Below are positions 25,477 through 34,333 of a stretch of DNA of 64,000 nt, piece by piece (the stretch's first letter is position 1; every line of letters begins with the position of its first letter). The translations under genes and the position numbers were made by a program. Under the pieces are notes generated by a model. It saw only the letters and a list, made by a program, of their open reading frames with translations, had not been told where the DNA came from and did not search any database. Source of the DNA: Spizellomyces punctatus DAOM BR117 (lineage: Eukaryota); assembly GCA_000182565.2 (NCBI GenBank), contig KQ257451.1. One strand, written 5' to 3'.

Positions 25477-27132
25477 TCAATGCTCACAAAGTGAAAACTG
25501 CCTCTCAAACATCTCGTCGTTATTTTTGCCGACAAAATACTTTCGCTCCTTCATCAGCTCCTCCCGAAATACCTTGGCCTCCTTCAATGTCATGCGCCCC
25601 GGGACGTTCTCCACAATAGTTTCCGTCACGAAATCGGGCAGATTCCTGAAAGGTGCGCCAACAGTATCGGCCACCTCATGACGGAACCATTCATCCTGTT
25701 GCGGTGGAACGCGCTTCGTGGAGACGATTCGCTTGGACGGATCGACGAGGAAGAACACGAGGATTTTACGATGACCTGGCTTTGTTGGGTCGATAAGAGA
25801 AAAGGAGTCGAGTTTATGCTGGTAAATGTTTGGAAAGGCGATGCAACGGGACTGAGGCGTTTCAATGCTGCCGAGGTCTTGGTTGAGAGCCTCTTCGTCA
25901 GCCAACCCGTATATCATTTCAACACCTCGGTTGTCATTCTGCTCATAGTCGGGTTCGCAGACTGCCACTCGGAAGCCGAGTGATGATAGTGTCGTATTTT
26001 CAACAGAGTAATAGTATATACCCGATGCAATGATTTTCTCATTCATCATACCTTCCACGTGCCACACCCCACCGGGATACGTAGGATTTTCGGGAGTGAG
26101 ATATATAGAAGCAAGCTTGACTATAACTTGAAGGCGGCGGTTGTTGAGTGTGACAACGCGCTCGGCAGGCGAAGGAGGCTGATAGGTCGGAACAGTGGGA
26201 CTTATTGGTGTTCGAGTCATCCACCATTCTTCGTGGGCTTCGTCGTACGCTTCATCGTCTAATTCGTCAGGATCGGGTTCACCAGTGTACCAATTAAATG
26301 GGTCTACTTTGATGACATTGTCGCGGGGATTGCGAAGGTCCGTCAAGACGTTGTTGAAAAGGGGCACAAACCGTGAAAAAATCTCCGCTATAGTCTGATA
26401 CAACGGTTTGTGCAGTCGGGGATGAAGGTTGTTGATGTAGGAAGTAATACCAGTTGTACCATCGTCCCGGACAACAAACTCGCTAGGAAGCCATTGAAAC
26501 TTTTCAGAATACCAGTACTTTTCTCCATAGCTATCCTTTTGCAGTGGTTGAATCGCGACTGCTTCTGTTGTCCCCCCACCCATAAACTGCTGCCATGTCA
26601 GTTTCCCCGCTTCCTCTTCGGTGTATCCTCGAGTGACGTCGCTAACTAGAGGGAACAAAGAGGGATGGACAAGATCCAGCACCTGATTGTTTGATCCTGG
26701 ATGCCAATCTTTTCGATGCTCAGGCACATTCTCCAGAGCTTTGACCTGCTCTACCAACTTGGCCTCAAGCTCTGGGGAGATGAGTTTATCGGCAAGATGG
26801 ATACCATAAACTCCAAACCGCGTGGGTGCGTGAACAGCGTCATGCTTCAACTCTTCGAGCACATACTCAAAAGCGCCCTCTGCGATACCCCCTTGCGCAT
26901 CCAATTCTTTCCGCCATTTTGACACAATTTCCTCGTTGTGAATTTTGGAGGTCCAGTTGGGCTTATTCCGAAGCGCGTTGGACAGTGATATGAGTGACAG
27001 CTCGAGAAGGGTCTTGGGCGGATCCCCTGAACCGTAGTCGTCAAAGTACTGCTTTTCCTGACCATCTGTGGTATAGAACGGACTTGGGATCCCCGATAGA
27101 TCGGAGTTGTCGGCAGGGATATTGGCTGCCAT
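25477..27132 (-). CDS. DUF4246-family protein, intronless
   Basis: Family-like motifs DWHPGSNNQVLDLVHPSLFP, FQWLPSEF, SYINNLHP, LQVIVKLASIYLTPE, GGVWHVEGMMNE, FPNIYQHK, GHRKILVFFLVDP and C-terminal FSLCEH. Confidence 0.88.
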   Translation of the reverse strand: MAANIPADNSDLSGIPSPFYTTDGQEKQYFDDYGSGDPPKTLLELSLISLSNALRNKPNWTSKIHNEEIVSKWRKELDAQGGIAEGAFEYVLEELKHDAVHAPTRFGVYGIHLADKLISPELEAKLVEQVKALENVPEHRKDWHPGSNNQVLDLVHPSLFPLVSDVTRGYTEEEAGKLTWQQFMGGGTTEAVAIQPLQKDSYGEKYWYSEKFQWLPSEFVVRDDGTTGITSYINNLHPRLHKPLYQTIAEIFSRFVPLFNNVLTDLRNPRDNVIKVDPFNWYTGEPDPDELDDEAYDEAHEEWWMTRTPISPTVPTYQPPSPAERVVTLNNRRLQVIVKLASIYLTPENPTYPGGVWHVEGMMNEKIIASGIYYYSVENTTLSSLGFRVAVCEPDYEQNDNRGVEMIYGLADEEALNQDLGSIETPQSRCIAFPNIYQHKLDSFSLIDPTKPGHRKILVFFLVDPSKRIVSTKRVPPQQDEWFRHEVADTVGAPFRNLPDFVTETIVENVPGRMTLKEAKVFREELMKERKYFVGKNNDEMFERQFSLCEH

Positions 27133-27731
27133 TTTAGAGATCGTCCTGATGGACAGGTAAACCAAGGCGAAGCACGATGAACCGCTTCCACGTGTCGCTG
27201 CTTATGTCACCGTGCAACTTTAATTCCGTGTTTGTTTCCATCAAAGCTTACTTTTAGAGTATGCAATACACGTATGATGAGCGATCACAGAGATAGCCTA
27301 CGTATCAAGTAGAACTACAGTCCGAACTGATGCTTTTCACGGAGTAGCGATGGCAACTTTATACTTTTATGCTGCTTGGGATCATTGAAAGTGCAATTAA
27401 ACATTTGATGTCAGCTTGTCAACTTGCTACTCTATGTACATGCCACCTGTTGAAAGAAGTTGACCGTTTCATGCTTGGCTAGCTTAACTTTCTTACGGTT
27501 ACTTTGAGGTAACTTGATATGAGGATTTTTGTGCTTGGCCAATTCTTCTGCTGTACAGTACTGTACAGTAAGTGCATAAAATGACCGCGCACCACGTGAC
27601 CGCACATGACAGTTCCCTGGGTGAGTGGAGCTGTCACGTGTAGTCACATGGGGGTCCCAGTATACCTGCAAATGCTGTACATAGTGTAGAGGTGATTGAA
27701 AATGGCACTAGGACCCATTATTATCCGGCTC

Positions 27732-28429
27732 AATCCGGTTAATCATATCGCATAATCAGAACCCCCATCCATCGCTCAGATTGGTGTGGCATGCTAATGT
27801 TTTTTTTTTAAACTGCGGTGAGGCGCATGCCAAAGGTCTACAAAAGGGGAGTCTTCTGTCTCTTCCCTCTTTCCTCTTCCTCTTTACCCATCCTCGACTC
27901 TCAAAGCATCTGCACAACTCTCATTGCGACCCACATTGCAACCTCATCGCGACTCGGTCAACCATGAGAACGCCGATGTGGTGGTGTCGAGGACCTCGAC
28001 CGCCCGACAGCAACCGTGACCAGAACCAGTGGCAACCAATCGGATCTGATAACAAAACCTACTATTATGCTGCCACATTAGTTGAGCTTGGTTGGTATGT
28101 ATTGATGGCATTTCTTGCATTTCTTGTCATCGGGTCATCTTCTGACATGCAGTTTTTTTCTCTAGTCTCCAAGCCTTGTCACTGAACATCCTCCAGCTTG
28201 CGAGTCTCCCCAATGTTGCGAAGACTCTGGCTTCAATGCCATCAAGAGTTCTGGATCAAGGCCTAGTAGGGACCGTGTGTGGTGGTGGGCAATTATCCGG
28301 TTAGAACCAACCGTTACGAATTGCGTGTATAATTGCCTAGTAGTACTTAGTTAGCTTTTCCGAACCGGTTGTCGCCGGTTTATTCCCTGGTGTAGTAGCT
28401 AGTGCCAGTTTCTGTCACCTAATACACTA
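27732..28429 (+). repeat. Dispersed ~700-bp repeat, copy B (inverted relative to copy A)
   Basis: Reverse complement of ~132-822 with scattered substitutions and small indels. Confidence 0.85.
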
Positions 28430-29051
28430 ACTTTTTGAGTGAGATTTGTTGACTATTGCCAGTGACGAGTTAGCTAAAAACAAGACTTGAAAGCCAAGAT
28501 GGTAGTAACTTGGCAAGCATCAAGGCTTCCATGTCTTTTAAGAAGTAGTTGGAAATAATTGCGTTTTCTTGGCTTGTTTGGATTCACCGGACCCAAATAC
28601 TACTTCTGTATTCGGAGCGACCGGACGTTCAACAAAATCGACCCTTCCGAAAATATCGCGACCCTGAAGACCAAGGTATGCTTATTTGTGATTATAAATA
28701 AAGCATAGAGTTTTGTTTATTTAGACTCTTTAAGTTTAGCCAAAAACAGTGACAGACATTGCTACCTTGGCATCTCCGAAAAAAGCTGGATGGTGCCGAT
28801 TTTTGAAATTCCAACTGACAAAATAAAGACATGGTTTTTGTGAAATATACCTGTGTTACTGTTATTCGGAGGATGGCTCCAGAGCGGTGTTCGTCTGTTC
28901 GGGTGGTTAACAGCTAAATTGCTGCTCGGCTGAGGCTTTGTTGTTTTGATGTCGTCCATGCCCGACGAGGAAGGGCGCTTATGGGTGAGGAAATTGGCGC
29001 CAAGAGGAATGGAGAACTTGAAGATGATCATCGTCCTTGATGGTCTCTGTC

Positions 29052-29058
29052 TATAAAA
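29052..29058 (+). promoter_or_regulatory. TATA box of the adhesin-like gene
   Basis: TATAAAA followed by a pyrimidine-rich leader with no ATG until 29485. Confidence 0.5.
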
Positions 29059-29484
29059 GCACTACCCAATCTCTGTCCCATTCTATCATTCGCAACTTTT
29101 ACTCGCTCTTGCAACTTTCTCTTTAACTTTCCTTTTCGGATCATACCCCATCTGAATCCTGCTTTCTGCTCGTCAAATACCAGCTTTTGTTCTGTTTCAA
29201 GCTTGTTATACCTTGTCAACTACTCGTTATCTGGACCTATCAATACCATTTCATACCCACTTTCGTATTCTTGTTCAGCATAACCTGAACGAATCCCGTA
29301 CATCTTGGATATCTGCTTTACGATCCGAACTCTACATCACCGCTACCTTGTGGTGACATCCAGTGCACTATATTCCTGCCTAAAACTTTTGAGATACCTT
29401 TCGGATTTACTTATACCAGAACGTAAAAGTTCACTTACATCGCGAAGAAAACCGTAACAAAAGCTTTTAAAAAACATCAAGAAA

Positions 29485-32400
29485 ATGGCCAACGTTGCTC
29501 CTACCCTCGCTAGTGCTGATGCCTCTGTGATGTAAGTTTTGCAATTGTAGACCTTACCTTGCATGGGCATTTATTAATCTTTTCTTTCCTAGTATGCCTC
29601 TGGCAACCGCCACTGGCTTCACAGCCAGTTTGACCGTTACTGACCCCGACAGTAACATCCAGGAAGCTACCGTTTCCGTCAGCGGAGGTTACACGGCCGG
29701 TGATCAGCTCTTCTTCACCGGTACTCTTCCTGTGGGAATGACCGCCGGCAACTCCAACGGATTGGCAGCGGATTCTACCAACGCAGATGGAGTGTTGAAA
29801 TTCGCTGGCTCTTTAACTCCAGCGGATTATCAGACTATTTTGCAGACGATTACTCTCAAATCGTCCAGCAAAGACTGTGCTCCGAGAACTGTCACAATTA
29901 CGGCCACAGATGTCCCTGGCGCGGTTTCTGCTGCGACCACCACAACATTCGACATCAGCGGTGCTCCTTCTATTTGCTATGTTGCTGGAAATACACTGTG
30001 AGTGATTAGGACATCCTTTGATTATACATAGGGAAATGCTGTGAAATAACATCCTTTTACTTTCAACAGTATTGGAGATAACAATGCTGCGGGCGTCACT
30101 CCAATTTCTGGCGCTACTCTCTACGATGACACTGCCTTGAAGTCAGTCAGCATCGCCATCACCGAAGTCGACGCTGGCGACTTACTCTCAGTCGACCTTA
30201 CAGGCATTGCGGACCTCACTGTTGGCACCGGCTATGACAGTACGACAAGAACTTTGACGATCACACCTGTCGCACCGGCCACTACGGTTGCATATTCGAC
30301 TTTCCAATCGGCACTGCGCGGATTGAAATTCAGCAGCACGGGTGCCCTCGGTACTAGGACCTTGACTGTGACTGCCACCGATGCCAACGATTTGGTGCAG
30401 ACGTCGTCGACTTTCACAGTTCAAAAGGTTGCTGCGCCTGTGATCGCTGCACAGGATACTAGCGCTATGTAAGTTCCGCAATGACACCGTATACAGGAAA
30501 TATGAGTATATTCTTATCATCTGCCACAGAGCAAACGCAGACGCCGCGCCCGTCTCATTTGCCTCTCAAGTTGCGATCTCAGATGCTGATTCCACCCAGC
30601 TAAGCAGCCTTACAATCCGTGTAAGCAATAACGCTTCAGCTCAGGACACCCTTGATGTTGACCTTGGGTCTGCTGTTCCTATGCTTACAAAAACCTGGAA
30701 TTCCGTGGAGCGCAAGCTTACGGTGTCGGGACCGGGGACCATGGCCGACTACCAGACAGTCCTTCGTACATTGACATTCTCGACTACCAACTTAGGCCCC
30801 GGCCAGAGGACAATTGAGATTCAAGCCTTTGATTCAGACCTAATTGGCTCTACTCCAGTGTCCAGTTATATCACTCTGAACGTGCCCCCGACCATTGCCC
30901 CGTTGACCGCTCAGTCCATCCGTGCCCACTTTGGCTCAGAGCCAATTCTCCCCAACATTACTCTAGGGGACAGCGATGGCACACAGCTCAAAACTGCCGT
31001 GGTCAGTATTGATGCAGGATACTTTGCCGGTGATGCCGTTATCGCCGCCGATTCCCTGTCTATAACGGGCAGTCCTAACATTACGGCCTCTGCGTTCAAC
31101 TCGTCCACTCTGTCGATGACACTCAGCGGTTCCGCGAACATTTCTGACTACCAAAATGTTCTCCAGACCTTGCAGCTGTCATCGTCCAAATCTGGTGCCA
31201 GGACGATTGGAATCAAAGTCATAGACATGGATGGAGGTGTTTCCGACGTTGCGCAATATACTGCAAATGTTTACGAGATTCCCCGTATCTCGATGGATTC
31301 TCGCCTTCTGTAAGTGCCAATCGTCATGGAAGGCGCAAAACTTTGGCTTATGATGCGCTTCTTTACTTTCCGTAGAATTAACGAAGGCACAACGGATGCC
31401 AAGCTCGCTCAGTACTTGTCATTGGCCGACCCCGACAGTGGTCAACTAAAATCAGTTACCGCCGAGTTGACAGGCTACATCCCCGATGTCATCAATGGTA
31501 CGATCGCAGAGGGAAGCGCTATAACTAGCGTCATCGAGGGGTCGAAAGTGACCTTTAGCGGTCTTGCCCCGTTGAGCGAATACCAATCTCTTCTGCGTAC
31601 CCTTGTTCTGGGCTCAGCGCAAAGAGGCTCTGGGTCCCGAATTCTCTCTATCAAAGCAAAGGATGATACCGATATGGAGTCTCTGATGGCGACAACCAAC
31701 ATAAAGATCAACAGCGCTCCAACCATTGCTTTGCCCAATTCATACCTTGCTTACGAGCATGGTCAATCCTTCATTCCACTTCTCTCTGGTGTGCAGTTGG
31801 CTGATGTGGACAACACCGTCATCTCCGAGGCCGTTATCCGCATTTCACCTCTTCGTCACAACGCTACCACCGACAGTCTCTCGTACGCGGGTGGTTGTGC
31901 ATCAGGACTTAGCGGTTGGTTCGACAAGGCAGCTGGTACCCTTACATTCCAATCGGTTGGGCCGGTAGACAATTACGCCAATGTTGGCGCATCCCTCTCC
32001 GGATTGCAAGACTGTTTACGCACGGTTAACTTTGCTACAACGAGCCTGAGCGAGTACACACATGAACTAGAGCTCAGTGTCTCGGATGGGGCTGCCACGT
32101 CACAGATAACGACAGTGAAAGTTGTCCCATTCTCCAAGTCCGTCACCAGTGTGCCCGATGCTGGGACGAATAGCACTCAAGTCCCAACGAGCATCGTCAT
32201 TCCTGTCACGCAATCCAGTACCCAGCACCGGATTGCGCCCCAAGTCTCAATCCCTCCCAGCATGACTAGCATGCAGATGGCCAAAGCATACATAACGGAA
32301 GGGTATATCCGAGGTGAAGATACTCTTGTGCTTAACAATACTGCTCCAGCAATCAATCAGACGGCTACCCTCCGCAAACGTGCCGTCGAGGACATCACCG

Positions 32401-33059
32401 CAGCCTTTGATCCCGTCGAGGGTTCGTTGACCTTGACCGGCAGCGCCGCTCCGGCCGATTTCCAGTCAGCGCTGCGCAATGTACACTACGCAAGCCTTGT
32501 GGAGACTCCCTCTACGACAAACAAGGTATTTGGGTTTGTGGTTTCCGATGGAGCGAATCTTGTGGCGTTGCCTGTCACCAAGTTGAAGATCAACAGAGCG
32601 CCAACGGTTGTTCATACGTAAGTCACTGGCATGCTCGTGCGTTCTGAAAAACTTTTAGTTTTAACCGAATTCAACAGTCCACAGGATTACAGCTACTACC
32701 CCAATACTCCCTTCACATTCCAAGTCGACAGCAACCGCACATTTGCTGACCTTGACGGCGACGCTCTGACCATATCCGCCAGCTCCCTCCCAACATGGGT
32801 AACCTTTGACGCAACCACAAACATGTTTGCAGGCGTCACCCCCGCCACGATCGGCAACACCGATATTGCCGTGGAAGCCTCAGATGGATTCGCCTCAGTC
32901 GGAACGTCATTCAAACTCCAGGTGGAGCCTGCTCCCGCCTCGTCAAACAAGAGCGGAAAGATTGCTGGAGGTGTGATCGGGTCGGTTGCTGGATTGGCGG
33001 TTGTAGGGTTGGGTATGTGGATGTACCGAAAGAAGAGGTCGCATTTGTCCGCAGTTTAG
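29485..33059 (+). CDS. Large adhesin-like membrane protein (~1084 aa): 7 Ig/cadherin-like repeats, one He_PIG/CADG-like domain, C-terminal TM helix
   Basis: Exons 29485-29531, 29593-29997, 30070-30468, 30530-31309, 31376-32617 and 32678-33059 splice in frame (3255 nt). Repeat consensus N.AP...l.lsD.DS..L..atv.i..gy...D.L....g.LTlsG..s.adYQ.vLrtl. TM GVIGSVAGLAVVGLGMWMY followed by RKKR. Confidence 0.88.
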
Positions 33060-34333
33060 AACCTTGAACGCTTGCAAAAACCGGAAAAAACCAGAAAAAA
33101 GAAAACGAAACTAACAAAAACGACTACCTTAAAACTTAGAACCAGAAAAAAAAAGGCAAAAAAAAGAATCTAGCACGTAGAGTACAAAGTTGTTTGTGGC
33201 GGATATAACTTTAAACAAAAATAAAAAAATATGACTTTTACTATATCTCTTCTGCCATTGCCCATCAGTAAATAAAGGATACACTCCTAGGTTACCTTCA
33301 CTTGATACCTAGGTATCAGGAATAGATTGACCATTCCCATTCATCAGATCAGCTTCATACGAATCAATGTGCTGAAAACAGTCAAGGGTGTGGGAAGCAC
33401 TTGTCACTCCTCGACTGACCACACGGCTGTAAGCATCTTCTTCTTTGGCTATCGCCCTGTCTTCATTCTGCGAATCAGCGTCAAGTTTATCTTGTCCGTT
33501 ATGGGCTCGTTAACATTATTCATATTTTTATAAGAATAAGTTGATTCCGCAAAGAAGATGGGCATATACAAAGGATATTCATCATGCGATAGGAAGGAGG
33601 ATGTTGACAAATTTGGAACCTTAAAGTCTTTTCTCCGCAATAAATCGTTCTCAGAATCCTCTGCTTCATCCTGTTCGTAATGATATTTGAAGCCTTATAT
33701 GAGCGGTGACACTTGCACATCCTTTCCGTACAAGGAAATAGGCTTCTCAAATTGTCGGCCTGTGATACTCCCGATATGTTCTGGTACTGTGCTCGAGTGC
33801 TTTCTAAATAATCTCTCGAGCGAGTTACAGAACAAGCGCATACAGGTTCTCCTGAGCGGGATAATAGTCAAACTTTATGAGCGCATCTTGGTCAAAATCA
33901 TGTTCATAACTGCTTTTCGACAATTTCAAAATATTCAATGATGTGGTCAGGCGTAAGAGCCGCGCACGAAGACGTGGGCATATGAAAGTTGGTAAGGAAT
34001 TCGTAGCCAAGTCTAGGTGGCTTACAACGAGTAATGAGACTAATCTTCATATACAGTGAAGTGGGCATCACTGTAAACGACATGATTTCGGATTGGACCA
34101 CTTGACGAGTTGAATTCTGGATGAAGATTTACACCATATAACGCCTTCCTCACCTGCGAACCGTTGAATATGCCAGGTTTGTGTACTCGGCACAGAAAGT
34201 ATGTAAACCAAGGGTGGCAGGAAGTCATAGGGAAAGTCATGGGCATGGAAACGCTCAACATGCAGGAAAGGTGAGGTGACCGAGCTTGTCCAAAAACATC
34301 CTCCTTTTCTTTGTACATGTATGCCATAACCTA

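What the first reader, a model, noticed from the sequence alone, without database searches (positions are those of the whole stretch)
29485..33059. Bacterial-adhesin-like cadherin/Ig repeat membrane protein in a chytrid-like fungus
Seen: seven ~130-aa beta-rich repeats, most with DxD-type motifs (TDPDS, SDADS, GDSDG, ADPDS, ADVDN) and LTlsG..adYQ.vLr.l cores, then a CADG/He_PIG-like domain (NRAP..TFADLDGDALT..LPTWVTFDATT..ASDG) and a TM anchor. From recall, this repeat style is typical of giant Ca2+-binding bacterial adhesins; the characterised fungal CADG protein I know (Axl2) lacks it. Inference: a horizontally acquired, intronised and membrane-anchored adhesin, a candidate for zoospore or rhizoid attachment. 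Best candidate for an undescribed system in this window.
Basis: partly seen in the sequence, partly recalled or inferred. Interest (0 to 1): 0.8.

Follow-up and report, generated by a model that had tools for sequence, protein, structure and literature searches.

The report
Bacterial-type cadherin-like repeat protein in chytrid
A soil chytrid fungus carries an intact, intron-containing gene for a membrane-anchored protein built from seven copies of a beta-sandwich repeat otherwise seen here only in giant bacterial surface proteins, which makes it a probable but unproven gene transfer of modest interest.

Summary
Window 29485-33059 (+) is a six-exon gene (five 60-72 nt phase-2 introns). Its 1084-aa product is letter for letter the database protein SPPG_01400 of Spizellomyces punctatus DAOM BR117, and a 92%-identical ortholog exists in Spizellomyces sp. 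'palustris'.

The protein has seven ~125-aa repeats, one He_PIG/CADG domain (Pfam E 1.7e-11), a TM helix and a 10-aa basic tail. The repeats reach no Pfam or NCBIfam cut-off. They do match a very large family of tandem repeats in giant bacterial surface proteins (RTX, T9SS and DUF4347 types). Every hit that names an organism, apart from Spizellomyces, is bacterial.

An AlphaFold2 model (pLDDT 92.7) gives Ig/cadherin-like beta-sandwiches, each with one helix. Weak profile matches to protocadherins line up the cadherin linker and DxD calcium motifs.

Four introns sit at the same repeat position and phase, which suggests exon duplication after intron gain.

Horizontal acquisition from bacteria is the best reading, about 0.65 on its own, but it is not proven:
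- most hits carry no taxon label;
- the repeat tree is unresolved;
- no donor is identified.

An adhesin role is inference only. No signal peptide was found, and the one RNA run laid shows almost no reads. This is a new member of a known kind, of moderate interest.

The parts
29485..29531 (+). Exon 1: start codon plus 15 codons. It reads like an inter-repeat linker (N-V-A-P-T...) and has no signal peptide.
   Evidence: scans for an upstream signal-peptide exon were negative
29600..29980 (+). Repeat 1 (residues 19-145), within exon 2 (29593-29997)
   Evidence: repeat HMM E 6.8e-26; DPD motif
30074..30451 (+). Repeat 2 (residues 153-278), within exon 3 (30070-30468)
   Evidence: repeat HMM E 8.5e-16
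30531..30902 (+). Repeat 3 (residues 285-408), first half of exon 4 (30530-31309)
   Evidence: repeat HMM E 8.4e-30; AlphaFold2 model pLDDT 92.7
30921..31295 (+). Repeat 4 (residues 415-539), second half of exon 4
   Evidence: repeat HMM E 1e-26; AlphaFold2 model
31377..31733 (+). Repeat 5 (residues 545-663), start of exon 5 (31376-32617)
   Evidence: repeat HMM E 1.9e-18
31752..32159 (+). Repeat 6 (residues 670-805)
   Evidence: repeat HMM E 1.4e-16
32160..32204 (+). Linker rich in Ser, Thr and Pro between repeats 6 and 7 (residues 806-820)
   Evidence: read from the translation; not covered by the repeat HMM
32205..32615 (+). Repeat 7 (residues 821-957). Its DxD motif is lost.
   Evidence: repeat HMM E 2.8e-22; match-state alignment
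32682..32924 (+). He_PIG / dystroglycan-type cadherin-like domain (residues 960-1040), in exon 6 (32678-33059)
   Evidence: Pfam PF05345 E 1.7e-11, 44.8 bits against a cut-off of 24
32961..33026 (+). Predicted transmembrane helix (residues 1053-1074)
   Evidence: hydropathy scan; weak, below-cut-off resemblance to TM and anchor models
33027..33059 (+). 10-residue basic C-terminal tail and the stop codon
29532..29592 (+). Intron 1 (61 nt, phase 2)
29998..30069 (+). Intron 2 (72 nt, phase 2)
30469..30529 (+). Intron 3 (61 nt, phase 2)
31310..31375 (+). Intron 4 (66 nt, phase 2)
32618..32677 (+). Intron 5 (60 nt, phase 2), between repeat 7 and He_PIG

Best explanation
This is the intact nuclear gene SPPG_01400 of the chytrid Spizellomyces punctatus.

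Shown: it encodes a 1084-aa protein with a single C-terminal membrane anchor. The bulk of the protein is a chain of eight beta-sandwich domains: seven copies of a ~125-aa repeat of the cadherin/Ig-like fold, then one He_PIG (dystroglycan-type cadherin-like) domain. After these come a TM helix and a 10-residue basic tail. The repeat belongs to a very large family, without a Pfam model, of tandem repeats in giant bacterial surface or secreted proteins.

Inferred, with my probability for each step taken alone:
- The repeat module, possibly together with He_PIG and the TM helix, entered the Spizellomyces lineage from a bacterium before the two sequenced species split (about 0.65).
- It then gained spliceosomal introns and was multiplied by duplication of an exon flanked by phase-2 introns, with later loss of some introns (about 0.5).
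- If the protein reaches the surface, the domains form a rod of roughly 30 nm, stiffened by Ca2+ at cadherin-like linker sites (DxD, xDx, N-x-A-P). It would then act in adhesion or matrix and cell-wall binding (about 0.35).
For: Gene and product:
- Canonical introns and an open 3255-nt CDS.
- Identical to database protein P0001 = SPPG_01400.
- The ortholog P0002 shares 998 of 1084 residues and differs by only two single-codon gaps, with no frame break.
- Contigs of three low-coverage runs of unrecorded type run through the introns without gaps, so they read as genomic DNA. They match the window over 28693-30413, 30330-31079 and 31284-33050 with 0 other letters.
- The upstream neighbour is a DUF4246 gene.
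- CDS GC3 is 0.554 against 0.539 in that neighbour.

Bacterial kinship of the repeats:
- phmmer of the whole protein against 1.84 billion representatives gave 2889 hits at E<=1e-3. Only P0002 is collinear over the full length. The rest of the 150 listed are multi-repeat proteins of 675-7105 aa.
- Of 30 clusters looked up, 10 name an organism and all 10 are bacteria; 20 name none.
- Rows that name an organism are bacterial apart from Spizellomyces.
- Each fungal repeat matches the mostly bacterial HMM at 52-97 bits.
- The best BLAST partners of each fungal repeat are bacterial-type copies, 30-42% identical over 99-128 residues among the top-scoring rows, rather than sister repeats.
- In the language-model feature search with residues 285-543, 28 of the 30 best clusters carry no Pfam family. 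The top three score 0.96 and are 100% Bacteria.
- P0141 has the same C-terminal layout (five repeats, He_PIG, TM, short tail), and its repeats are up to 55% identical to Nostoc proteins.

Fold and motifs:
- The AlphaFold2 model of exon 4 has pLDDT 92.7 and shows two beta-sandwiches, each with one helix on the A-x-Y-Q-x-x-L motif.
- Foldseek returns tandem Ig-like adhesin domains and cadherins.
- The profile against PDB sequences finds protocadherins at E 0.003-0.07, aligned across xDxG ... VN.AP ... E ... DxD.

Exon duplication:
- Exon borders coincide with repeat borders.
- Introns in codons 16, 151, 284 and 544 lie 17-18 residues before the DxD motif, and all are in phase 2.
- A tree holding the seven fungal repeats as one clade is not rejected (p-AU 0.938).
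Against: - No signal peptide is present at the annotated start, and no credible upstream exon encodes one. Surface exposure of the repeats is therefore not established.
- The one RNA run laid (X7, about 6 in 100 of the run read) gives depth 0-0.42 over the coding bins. Depth is 1.2-1.7 only over 32809-33300, and the strand of origin there is unknown.
- The repeat tree is unresolved: 5 starred branches of 111. No donor clade is identified.
- The seven fungal repeats are only 24% identical to each other on average, against 44-72% within seven bacterial proteins. That points to old duplications, which fits poorly with a gene so far seen in one genus only.
- The only Pfam model that touches the repeat is the metazoan calsyntenin C-terminal model, so distant eukaryotic relatives of the repeat exist.
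- The gene is not among the four S. punctatus xenologs of a published survey.
- Structure searches give only generic Ig-like matches. The best Z is 9.9, where 7-8 is background.
- Calcium binding is by analogy only. The DxD motif is kept in 6 of 7 repeats, and the N-x-[AP]-P linker in 4 of 8 junctions (read).
Confidence: 0.5

Rival explanations
1. The gene is vertically inherited. It would be a remnant of an old eukaryotic (opisthokont) cadherin-superfamily repeat, lost in most fungi. On this reading its likeness to bacterial proteins reflects the great abundance and slow change of the bacterial copies, not a transfer.
For: - The metazoan calsyntenin C-terminal model (PF19699) is the only Pfam family that touches the repeat. 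It scores E 0.0025 on exon 4 and down to 1.9e-39 summed over a bacterial protein.
- The fungal repeats are deeply diverged from one another, 24% mean identity.
- Four introns share position and phase, as expected of an old eukaryotic gene.
- Composition is like that of the neighbouring gene.
Against: - The fungal repeats score 52-97 bits each against the mostly bacterial HMM, but only 17.2 bits against the calsyntenin model, whose cut-off is 27.
- No eukaryote other than Spizellomyces is named in any hit list.
- The best feature-search clusters are 100% Bacteria.
- No other full-length collinear relative appears among 1.84 billion representatives.
Confidence: 0.12
2. The gene is a silent or decaying relic. 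It would be a 5'-truncated copy that has lost its signal-peptide exon, is barely transcribed, and keeps an open frame only because the two species are close.
For: - No signal peptide, and an N-terminus that reads like an inter-repeat linker.
- Near-zero RNA depth over the coding region in the one run laid.
- Repeat 7 has lost DxD, and several linkers have lost the N-x-A-P motif.
- No paper in the searched library mentions the locus tag.
Against: - Both species keep all 1084 or 1082 codons open, with 84 replacements and two in-frame single-codon gaps. My rough estimate, which is inference, is that about four stop codons would be expected if those changes were neutral.
- All five introns keep canonical splice sites.
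- One RNA run of unknown condition, about 6% read, cannot show silence.
Confidence: 0.18
3. The protein is tail-anchored. With no signal peptide and a TM helix ending 10 residues from the C-terminus, it would be inserted after translation with the repeats in the cytosol. It would then serve an intracellular role such as an organelle tether.
For: No signal peptide. The TM helix spans residues 1053-1074 of 1084. The bacterial-type twin P0141 also lacks an N-terminal signal.
Against: - The basic residues lie after the TM helix (R-K-K-R), as in type I proteins.
- The four cysteines fall in two same-repeat pairs, 111/144 and 718/757.
- The domain types (cadherin-like, He_PIG) are extracellular wherever they are characterised (established knowledge).
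- The sequon count is uninformative: 12 against 10 expected.
Confidence: 0.07
4. Bacterial contamination or an assembly chimera.
For: Outside the genus, the closest named relatives are all bacterial.
Against: - Five spliceosomal introns interrupt the frame.
- The gene lies on a 2,165,103-base contig, next to a DUF4246 gene.
- An ortholog exists in a second species.
- Contigs from three other runs span the intergenic and exon junctions without a difference.
Confidence: 0.01

Closest known systems
Tandem ~125-131-aa repeats of giant bacterial surface or secreted proteins. Sources name these proteins 'beta strand repeat-containing', 'tandem-95 repeat', 'DUF4347 domain-containing', 'calcium-binding' or 'large repetitive protein'. 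Examples here are the Oculatella sp. LEGE 06141 protein P0030 (L001) and Mycolicibacterium chubuense Mycch_4428.
   Same: - Same repeat by sequence: 52-97 bits per fungal copy against the HMM.
- Same length and the same conserved positions: DxD, L-T-L-T-G, A-x-Y-Q-x-A-L-R, x-D-G and N-x-A-P.
- It also occurs next to He_PIG and, in P0141, next to a C-terminal TM helix.
   Different: - The bacterial proteins listed are 675-7105 aa. The copy counts I made run from 5 to 44, and copies within one protein are 44-72% identical on average.
- Those I scanned carry bacterial export or anchoring parts: RTX, CHU_C or Por_Secre_tail, DUF4347.
- The fungal protein has 7 copies that are 24% identical on average, has introns, and carries none of those parts.
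- No member has a tested function that I could find. The name 'cell surface protein required for swimming motility' on P0040 is a source's label.
Classical cadherin and protocadherin EC repeats (Pfam PF00028)
   Same: - Beta-sandwich repeats in tandem.
- A profile alignment to protocadherins beta-6, beta-8, gamma-B3 and others lines up xDxG, the (D)xN(D)xAP linker, a strand-A Glu and the DxD motif.
- Cadherins are among the Foldseek matches.
   Different: - No Pfam cadherin hit on the fungal protein.
- The repeat is some 20 residues longer than the 93-position Pfam cadherin model and has an alpha-helix after the L-T-L-T-G strand.
- No LDRE-type motif was seen.
- No catenin-binding tail; the tail is 10 residues long.
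Dystroglycan-type cadherin-like (CADG / He_PIG, PF05345) membrane proteins such as dystroglycan and yeast Axl2 (recalled; not fetched here)
   Same: One He_PIG domain next to the membrane, followed by a single TM helix.
   Different: - The seven N-terminal repeats are of another family.
- The He_PIG domain's best-scoring partners are multi-He_PIG giant proteins, 36-43% identical. The two of these that name an organism are bacterial: Stenoxybacter and Tepidisphaeraceae.
- I did not compare it with Axl2 or dystroglycan.
Calsyntenin C-terminal region (Pfam PF19699, Metazoa)
   Same: It is the only Pfam model that picks up the repeat core (L-T-L-T-G ... Y-Q ... L-R). The matches fall in two parts of the profile, about 9-61 and 158-252.
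   Different: The fungal protein is below the cut-off, 17.2 against 27 bits. The matches are local, about 35-60 residues. Calsyntenin itself was not examined here.
CSPG repeats of NG2/CSPG4 and FRAS1-type proteins (Pfam Cadherin_3, PF16184)
   Same: Cadherin-like repeats shared by bacteria and animals. They occur in the same bacterial proteins as the repeat studied here (P0141). There is a weak profile match to CSPG4 at E 0.43, and feature-search leads score below 0.9.
   Different: A separate family: the fungal protein has no Cadherin_3 hit.

Membership tests
He_PIG / CADG (PF05345) | Match to the Pfam model above its gathering score | tested here: met
   Exon 6: E 1.7e-11, 44.8 bits against 24, profile positions 9-95 of 96
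Bacterial ~125-aa tandem repeat (no Pfam model; HMM built here) | Significant match of each copy to a profile built from the family | tested here: met
   Seven copies at E 8.4e-30 to 8.5e-16, covering HMM positions 2-9 to 118-124 of 125. The HMM was seeded from the fungal copies and then rebuilt from all hits, which are mostly bacterial.
Bacterial ~125-aa tandem repeat | Conserved DxD, x-D-(G) and N-x-A-P positions | tested here: inconclusive
   DxD is kept in 6 of 7 repeats, the x-D position in 7 of 7, and N-x-[AP]-P in 4 of 8 junctions (read)
Cadherin (PF00028) | Match to the Pfam cadherin model | tested here: not met
   No PF00028 hit at E<=1 on any exon. There is only a weak profile match to protocadherin chains, E 0.003-0.1.
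Cadherin (PF00028) | Ca2+ bound at the inter-domain linkers | not testable with these tools
tandem-95 repeat (NCBIfam NF012211) | Match above the model's cut-off | tested here: not met
   No hit on P0001 at E<=1. The three bacterial relatives scanned match at 36-70 bits, below the cut-off of 90; the best stretches in P0030 and P0141 cover only about the last 32 model positions.
Calsyntenin C-terminal (PF19699) | Match above the gathering score | tested here: not met
   17.2 bits against 27
Type I membrane protein | Single TM helix near the C-terminus with basic residues on its cytosolic side | tested here: met
   Residues 1053-1074, then R-K-K-R-S-H...
Type I membrane protein | Cleavable N-terminal signal peptide | tested here: not met
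   The N-terminus has no hydrophobic core of signal-peptide type. No upstream ATG exon combines a hydrophobic core with a GT[AG]AG donor in a compatible phase. No dedicated signal-peptide predictor was available.
Bacterium-to-eukaryote gene transfer | Closest relatives outside the recipient clade are bacterial | tested here: met
   10 of 10 clusters that name an organism, out of 30 asked. All organism-naming rows are bacterial. The top feature-search clusters are 100% Bacteria.
Bacterium-to-eukaryote gene transfer | Absent from other fungi and other eukaryotes | tested here: inconclusive
   No other eukaryote is named in any list. Most hits are unlabelled, and no labelled eukaryotic proteome set could be searched.
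Bacterium-to-eukaryote gene transfer | Nested inside a bacterial clade in a supported tree | tested here: inconclusive
   Repeat tree of 114 rows and 126 columns: 5 of 111 branches are starred. Monophyly of the fungal copies is not rejected.
Bacterium-to-eukaryote gene transfer | Truly integrated in the eukaryotic genome | tested here: met
   Five introns; a 2.17-Mb contig; a eukaryote-type neighbour gene; an ortholog in a second species; matching contigs from other runs that span the introns

The most novel reading that the evidence does not exclude
A repeat of the cadherin superfamily that has no family model, and is otherwise found in thousands of giant bacterial surface proteins, was captured by a zoosporic fungus. 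It then gained introns and was multiplied by exon duplication into a eukaryote-style single-pass surface receptor. That would be an independent, bacterium-derived route to cadherin-like, calcium-dependent adhesion in a lineage where adhesion molecules are almost undescribed.
Probability: 0.25. Interest if true: 0.65.

Novelty: new member of a known kind. Interest (0 to 1): 0.45.

Why it matters
- Adhesion molecules of chytrids are almost undescribed. A 2018 review states that adhesin descriptions are rare outside Ascomycota (PMC6023273, passages seen). S. punctatus is genetically tractable (PMC7213984, title and abstract seen), so the gene could be tested directly.
- The case would add a surface-protein example to bacterium-to-chytrid transfers followed by intron gain. 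That process is described for other genes in PMC11291939 (passages seen).
- Four introns at one repeat position give an unusually clear view of exon duplication after transfer.
- Separately, the repeat itself looks like a large bacterial domain family that no current Pfam model covers. Only a metazoan calsyntenin model touches it, which is worth a curator's look.

Tried and rejected
- Whole-genome search: no genome is held for this window, so paralogs could not be counted. The window has no second copy, and no second S. punctatus protein appeared.
- Earlier notes of this scan: none found. One search failed on a word format.
- RNA holders: no RNA holder listed.
- Rfam and tRNA scans of 27000-29500 found nothing at gathering level. 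Only chance-level miRNA rows appeared at E 0.4-0.6.
- Locus scans:
  - The seven-repeat alignment had no stretch conserved enough to search with.
  - P0141 found nothing in the prokaryote genome collection.
  - P0027 was too long.
  - P0030 gave its own locus, L001, which I used as a source of referenced repeats.
  - P0141 in metagenome contigs gave only L003, a contig with T9SS sorting domains. It is related to the N-terminal part of P0141 and says nothing about the organism that carries P0141.
- Donor search: BLAST of each fungal repeat against 1739 repeat copies picks different proteins for each repeat, and the tree is unresolved. No donor can be named.
- Fold searches:
  - Foldseek gives many tandem Ig-like adhesins at TM 0.2-0.36.
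  - VIA-align against 48,161 chains gives a best Z of 9.9 with generic Ig-like, PKD, cohesin and cadherin rows.
  - No specific solved relative emerged. This does not show a new fold.
- Whole-protein feature search: all scores were at or below 0.82, so they are leads only. A Chlorophyta cluster ranked first.
- Literature:
  - 0 papers hold the locus tag in the searched library.
  - The tag, He_PIG, PF05345 and 'Dystroglycan' do not occur in the 4 held supplementary files of PMC5364385.
  - The tag does not occur in the held supplement of PMC11291939.
  - Five papers mention DUF4347, none about this repeat. I saw titles and abstract starts and one table row.
  - bioRxiv supplements are closed, so expression tables there may exist unseen.
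- Considered and dropped:
  - LPXTG or NPXTG sortase anchor: below cut-off, and it reflects only the TM helix plus basic tail.
  - A signal peptide at 28105: the donors are poor and the intron would be 1.3 kb, against 60-72 nt elsewhere in the gene.


Full report
What is there. The + strand between 29485 and 33059 carries a series of open frames. They join through five short introns into one 3255-nt coding sequence. The exons are 29485-29531, 29593-29997, 30070-30468, 30530-31309, 31376-32617 and 32678-33059. The introns are 61, 72, 61, 66 and 60 nt, with GTAAGT or GTGAGT donors and YAG acceptors, and all are in phase 2. The 1084-aa product is identical to a database protein that NCBI names 'uncharacterized protein SPPG_01400 [Spizellomyces punctatus DAOM BR117]', seen on a 2,165,103-base contig. 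Spizellomyces sp. 'palustris' has a 1082-aa ortholog with 998 of 1084 aligned positions identical. The two differ by only two single-codon gaps.

Is it real DNA of this organism? Contigs from three other low-coverage runs, whose type is not on record, match the window without a single difference over 28693-30413, 30330-31079 and 31284-33050. They run through the introns, so they are genomic. The upstream neighbour on the minus strand (25477-27201) is a DUF4246 protein at E 7.7e-125. The CDS has GC3 0.554 against 0.539 in that neighbour, and the introns have GC 0.388. Contamination or a chimera can be set aside.

Anatomy of the protein. Seven repeats align with each other at 19-29% identity to the first. 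The conserved core is L-T-x-x-G, then (A/S)-D-Y-Q-x-x-L-R, then an invariant Asp. A repeat HMM, seeded with these seven and rebuilt from all hits among the stored homologs, places them at residues 19-145, 153-278, 285-408, 415-539, 545-663, 670-805 and 821-957. E-values run from 8.4e-30 to 8.5e-16. A linker rich in Ser, Thr and Pro separates repeats 6 and 7. Exon 6 holds a He_PIG domain (PF05345, E 1.7e-11, 44.8 bits against a cut-off of 24). After it come a 22-residue hydrophobic helix (1053-1074) and a 10-residue basic tail. The repeats reach no Pfam or NCBIfam cut-off. The best row is the metazoan calsyntenin C-terminal model at 17.2 bits against 27.

What the repeat is. An exhaustive phmmer search of the whole protein against 1.84 billion representative proteins gave 2889 hits at E<=1e-3 and 257 at E<=1e-30. 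Only the congeneric ortholog is collinear over the full length. The other 149 listed proteins are 675-7105 aa long and match in many stretches at 27-43% identity. I asked for the source names of 30 of them. Ten clusters name an organism, and all ten are bacteria:
- Mycolicibacterium chubuense;
- Mycobacterium spp., three clusters;
- Oculatella sp.;
- a Tepidisphaeraceae MAG;
- Stenoxybacter acetivorans;
- an Actinomycetota MAG;
- Ramlibacter tataouinensis;
- a Pseudomonadota MAG.

The other twenty name no organism.

The word-indexed searches agree. Apart from the two Spizellomyces proteins, every row that names an organism is bacterial.

In these proteins the repeat runs in strict tandem. The Oculatella protein has 26 copies at a period of about 131 residues (locus L001). 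I counted 1739 copies in 149 of the stored proteins. The partner domains I saw in the proteins scanned or listed are RTX nonapeptides, classical cadherin, Cadherin_3/4/5, Big_9, DUF4347, FG-GAP and type IX sorting domains. The repeat region itself is hit only by the calsyntenin model, summed E as low as 1.9e-39 in P0030. It is also touched, below cut-off, by NCBIfam's 'tandem-95' model, mostly its last ~32 positions.

An independent language-model feature search with residues 285-543 agrees. Of the 30 best clusters, 28 carry no Pfam family. The top three score 0.96 and are 100% Bacteria. The repeat appears to be a large bacterial family without a model of its own.

Fold and likely mechanism. 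I aligned exon 4 (repeats 3 and 4) with two other two-repeat stretches of the window and with 24 two-repeat stretches of the Oculatella locus. AlphaFold2 gave a confident model: mean pLDDT 92.7 and pTM 0.79. It shows two beta-sandwiches of seven to eight strands. In each, the A-x-Y-Q-x-x-L motif forms a short helix after the L-T-L-T-G strand.

Foldseek against the PDB returns tandem Ig-like domains of bacterial adhesins (PrgB, antigen I/II C-domains, SraP) and cadherins. TM-scores are low at 0.2-0.36, as expected for two domains with free orientation. A Foldseek-independent search of 48,161 chains gives a best Z of 9.9 and a list of generic Ig-like, PKD, cohesin and cadherin domains. That is close to what the tool itself calls background. 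The fold class is therefore clear, but no specific solved relative emerged.

The profile against PDB sequences finds protocadherins weakly (E 0.003-0.07). The alignment spans a domain junction. The repeat's x-D-G and V-N-x-A-P line up with the cadherin A-x-D-x-G and D-x-N-D-N-A-P. A Glu follows in the first strand, and then D-P-D-S lines up with the cadherin D-x-D. From established knowledge of classical cadherins, these positions bind the Ca2+ ions that stiffen the linker.

In the fungal protein the DxD motif is kept in 6 of 7 repeats, the x-D position in 7 of 7, and N-x-[AP]-P in 4 of 8 junctions. The mechanism I think most likely is therefore a rod of eight beta-sandwiches, roughly 30 nm long taking about 4 nm per domain (recalled size of such domains). 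It would be partly stiffened by calcium, held in the membrane by its C-terminal helix, and would bind a surface or matrix ligand. Only the domain composition and the fold are shown. Calcium binding, topology and adhesion are inferred.

Origin. Five observations favour capture from bacteria:
- the labelled relatives are all bacterial;
- the family is huge and spread over many bacterial phyla. A search with the C-terminal 821 residues of P0141 alone gave 3479 proteins at E<=1e-3, and every row that names an organism names a bacterium;
- each fungal repeat is closer to bacterial-type copies, 30-42% identical over 99-128 residues among the top-scoring BLAST rows, than to its own sisters;
- no other eukaryote is named anywhere;
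- P0141, a 1970-aa protein of unnamed source, has the same C-terminal layout: five repeats, He_PIG, a TM helix and a short tail, with no N-terminal signal. Its repeats are up to 55% identical to Nostoc proteins. The whole module could therefore have moved as one piece.

After the capture the gene became eukaryotic in form. Exon borders coincide with repeat borders. The introns in codons 16, 151, 284 and 544 lie 17-18 residues before the first Asp of DxD, and all are in phase 2. The simplest reading is that one exon flanked by phase-2 introns was duplicated. Introns were later lost inside exon 4 (two repeats) and exon 5 (three repeats). Consistent with this, a tree that holds the seven fungal repeats together is not rejected. 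In the quick search it was even better than the free tree (lnL +89.6, p-AU 0.938). Long-branch attraction could contribute to that result.

What speaks against a simple story:
- Most hits have no taxon label.
- The single-repeat tree is unresolved, with 5 of 111 branches supported.
- Each fungal repeat picks a different best partner, so no donor can be named.
- The fungal repeats are only 24% identical to one another on average, against 44-72% within seven bacterial proteins. That means old duplications or fast change, and an old gene should be visible in more than one genus.
- The calsyntenin model's partial matches show that animals hold distant relatives of the repeat core.
- A survey of 44 early-diverging fungi lists four S. 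punctatus xenologs (207, 484, 153 and 391 aa), not this one (supplementary table of PMC11291939). That pipeline was conservative, so this is weak evidence.
- The annotated N-terminus has no signal peptide and reads like an inter-repeat linker. I found no upstream ATG exon that combines a hydrophobic core with a good donor in a compatible phase.
- In the one RNA run laid (about 6 in 100 of the run read), the coding bins have depth 0-0.42. Depth is 1.2-1.7 only over 32809-33300, and the strand of origin there is unknown.

The gene may thus be stage-specific, nearly silent, or a relic. The open frame kept in both species through 84 replacements and two in-frame gaps argues, roughly, for constraint.

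Comparison with the known. The protein works like a cadherin-type or bacterial Ig-like 'extender' rod, but it is not a member of Pfam Cadherin. It is a member of He_PIG through its last domain, and of the unnamed bacterial repeat family through the other seven. I found no paper that mentions the locus. A review notes how little is known of adhesins outside Ascomycota (PMC6023273, passages). Intron gain after bacterium-to-chytrid transfer is described for other genes (PMC11291939, passages).

Verdict. This is a new member of a known kind: a cadherin-like repeat surface protein of bacterial type, in a fungus. Its function and origin remain to be proven. Interest is moderate. The intron pattern and the repeat family without a model are its most attractive features.

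Noticed in passing
window 28300-28430: A short element about 1.1 kb upstream of the gene has very high depth. In the three low-coverage runs of unrecorded type the summed contig depth is 200-320, against about 3 in the flanks. In the RNA run the depth is about 9170, almost all in one direction. Many variant letters and loose ends are seen. It looks like a dispersed, highly transcribed repeat. There is no tRNA and no Rfam family at gathering level.
   Followed up: partly
Pfam PF19699 (CLSTN_C) against L001:3001-16602 and other bacterial proteins: The metazoan calsyntenin C-terminal model is the only Pfam family that picks up the bacterial repeat core. Summed E is 1.9e-39 on P0030, and matches fall at profile positions about 9-61 and 158-252. 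The calsyntenin juxtamembrane region may hold two degenerate copies of this repeat, or the model may be drawing in bacterial repeats.
   Followed up: no
protein P0141 (1970 aa, unnamed ENA record): A bacterial-type protein with four Cadherin_3 repeats, five of the repeats studied here, He_PIG, a C-terminal TM helix and a 40-residue tail, and no N-terminal signal. This is the same C-terminal layout as the fungal protein. P0091 ends in a similar way. The organism could not be identified.
   Followed up: partly
protein P0023 (1065 aa, JGI contig of 3.3 kb): A protein with FG-GAP and VCBS domains, a weak match to the repeat (E 2.3e-5), a strongly hydrophobic C-terminal TM helix and a 45-residue charged tail. 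This layout looks eukaryote-like (integrin-alpha-like). The source is unknown.
   Followed up: no
window 27202-29484: About 2.3 kb without a convincing open frame lies between the DUF4246 gene and this gene. That is long for this gene-dense window, and it holds the repeat element noted above.
   Followed up: no
L003:7198-10810: A metagenome contig carries two adjacent genes for proteins with type IX sorting tails. They are 39% identical to the N-terminal part of P0141. This was a side path with no bearing on the finding.
   Followed up: yes
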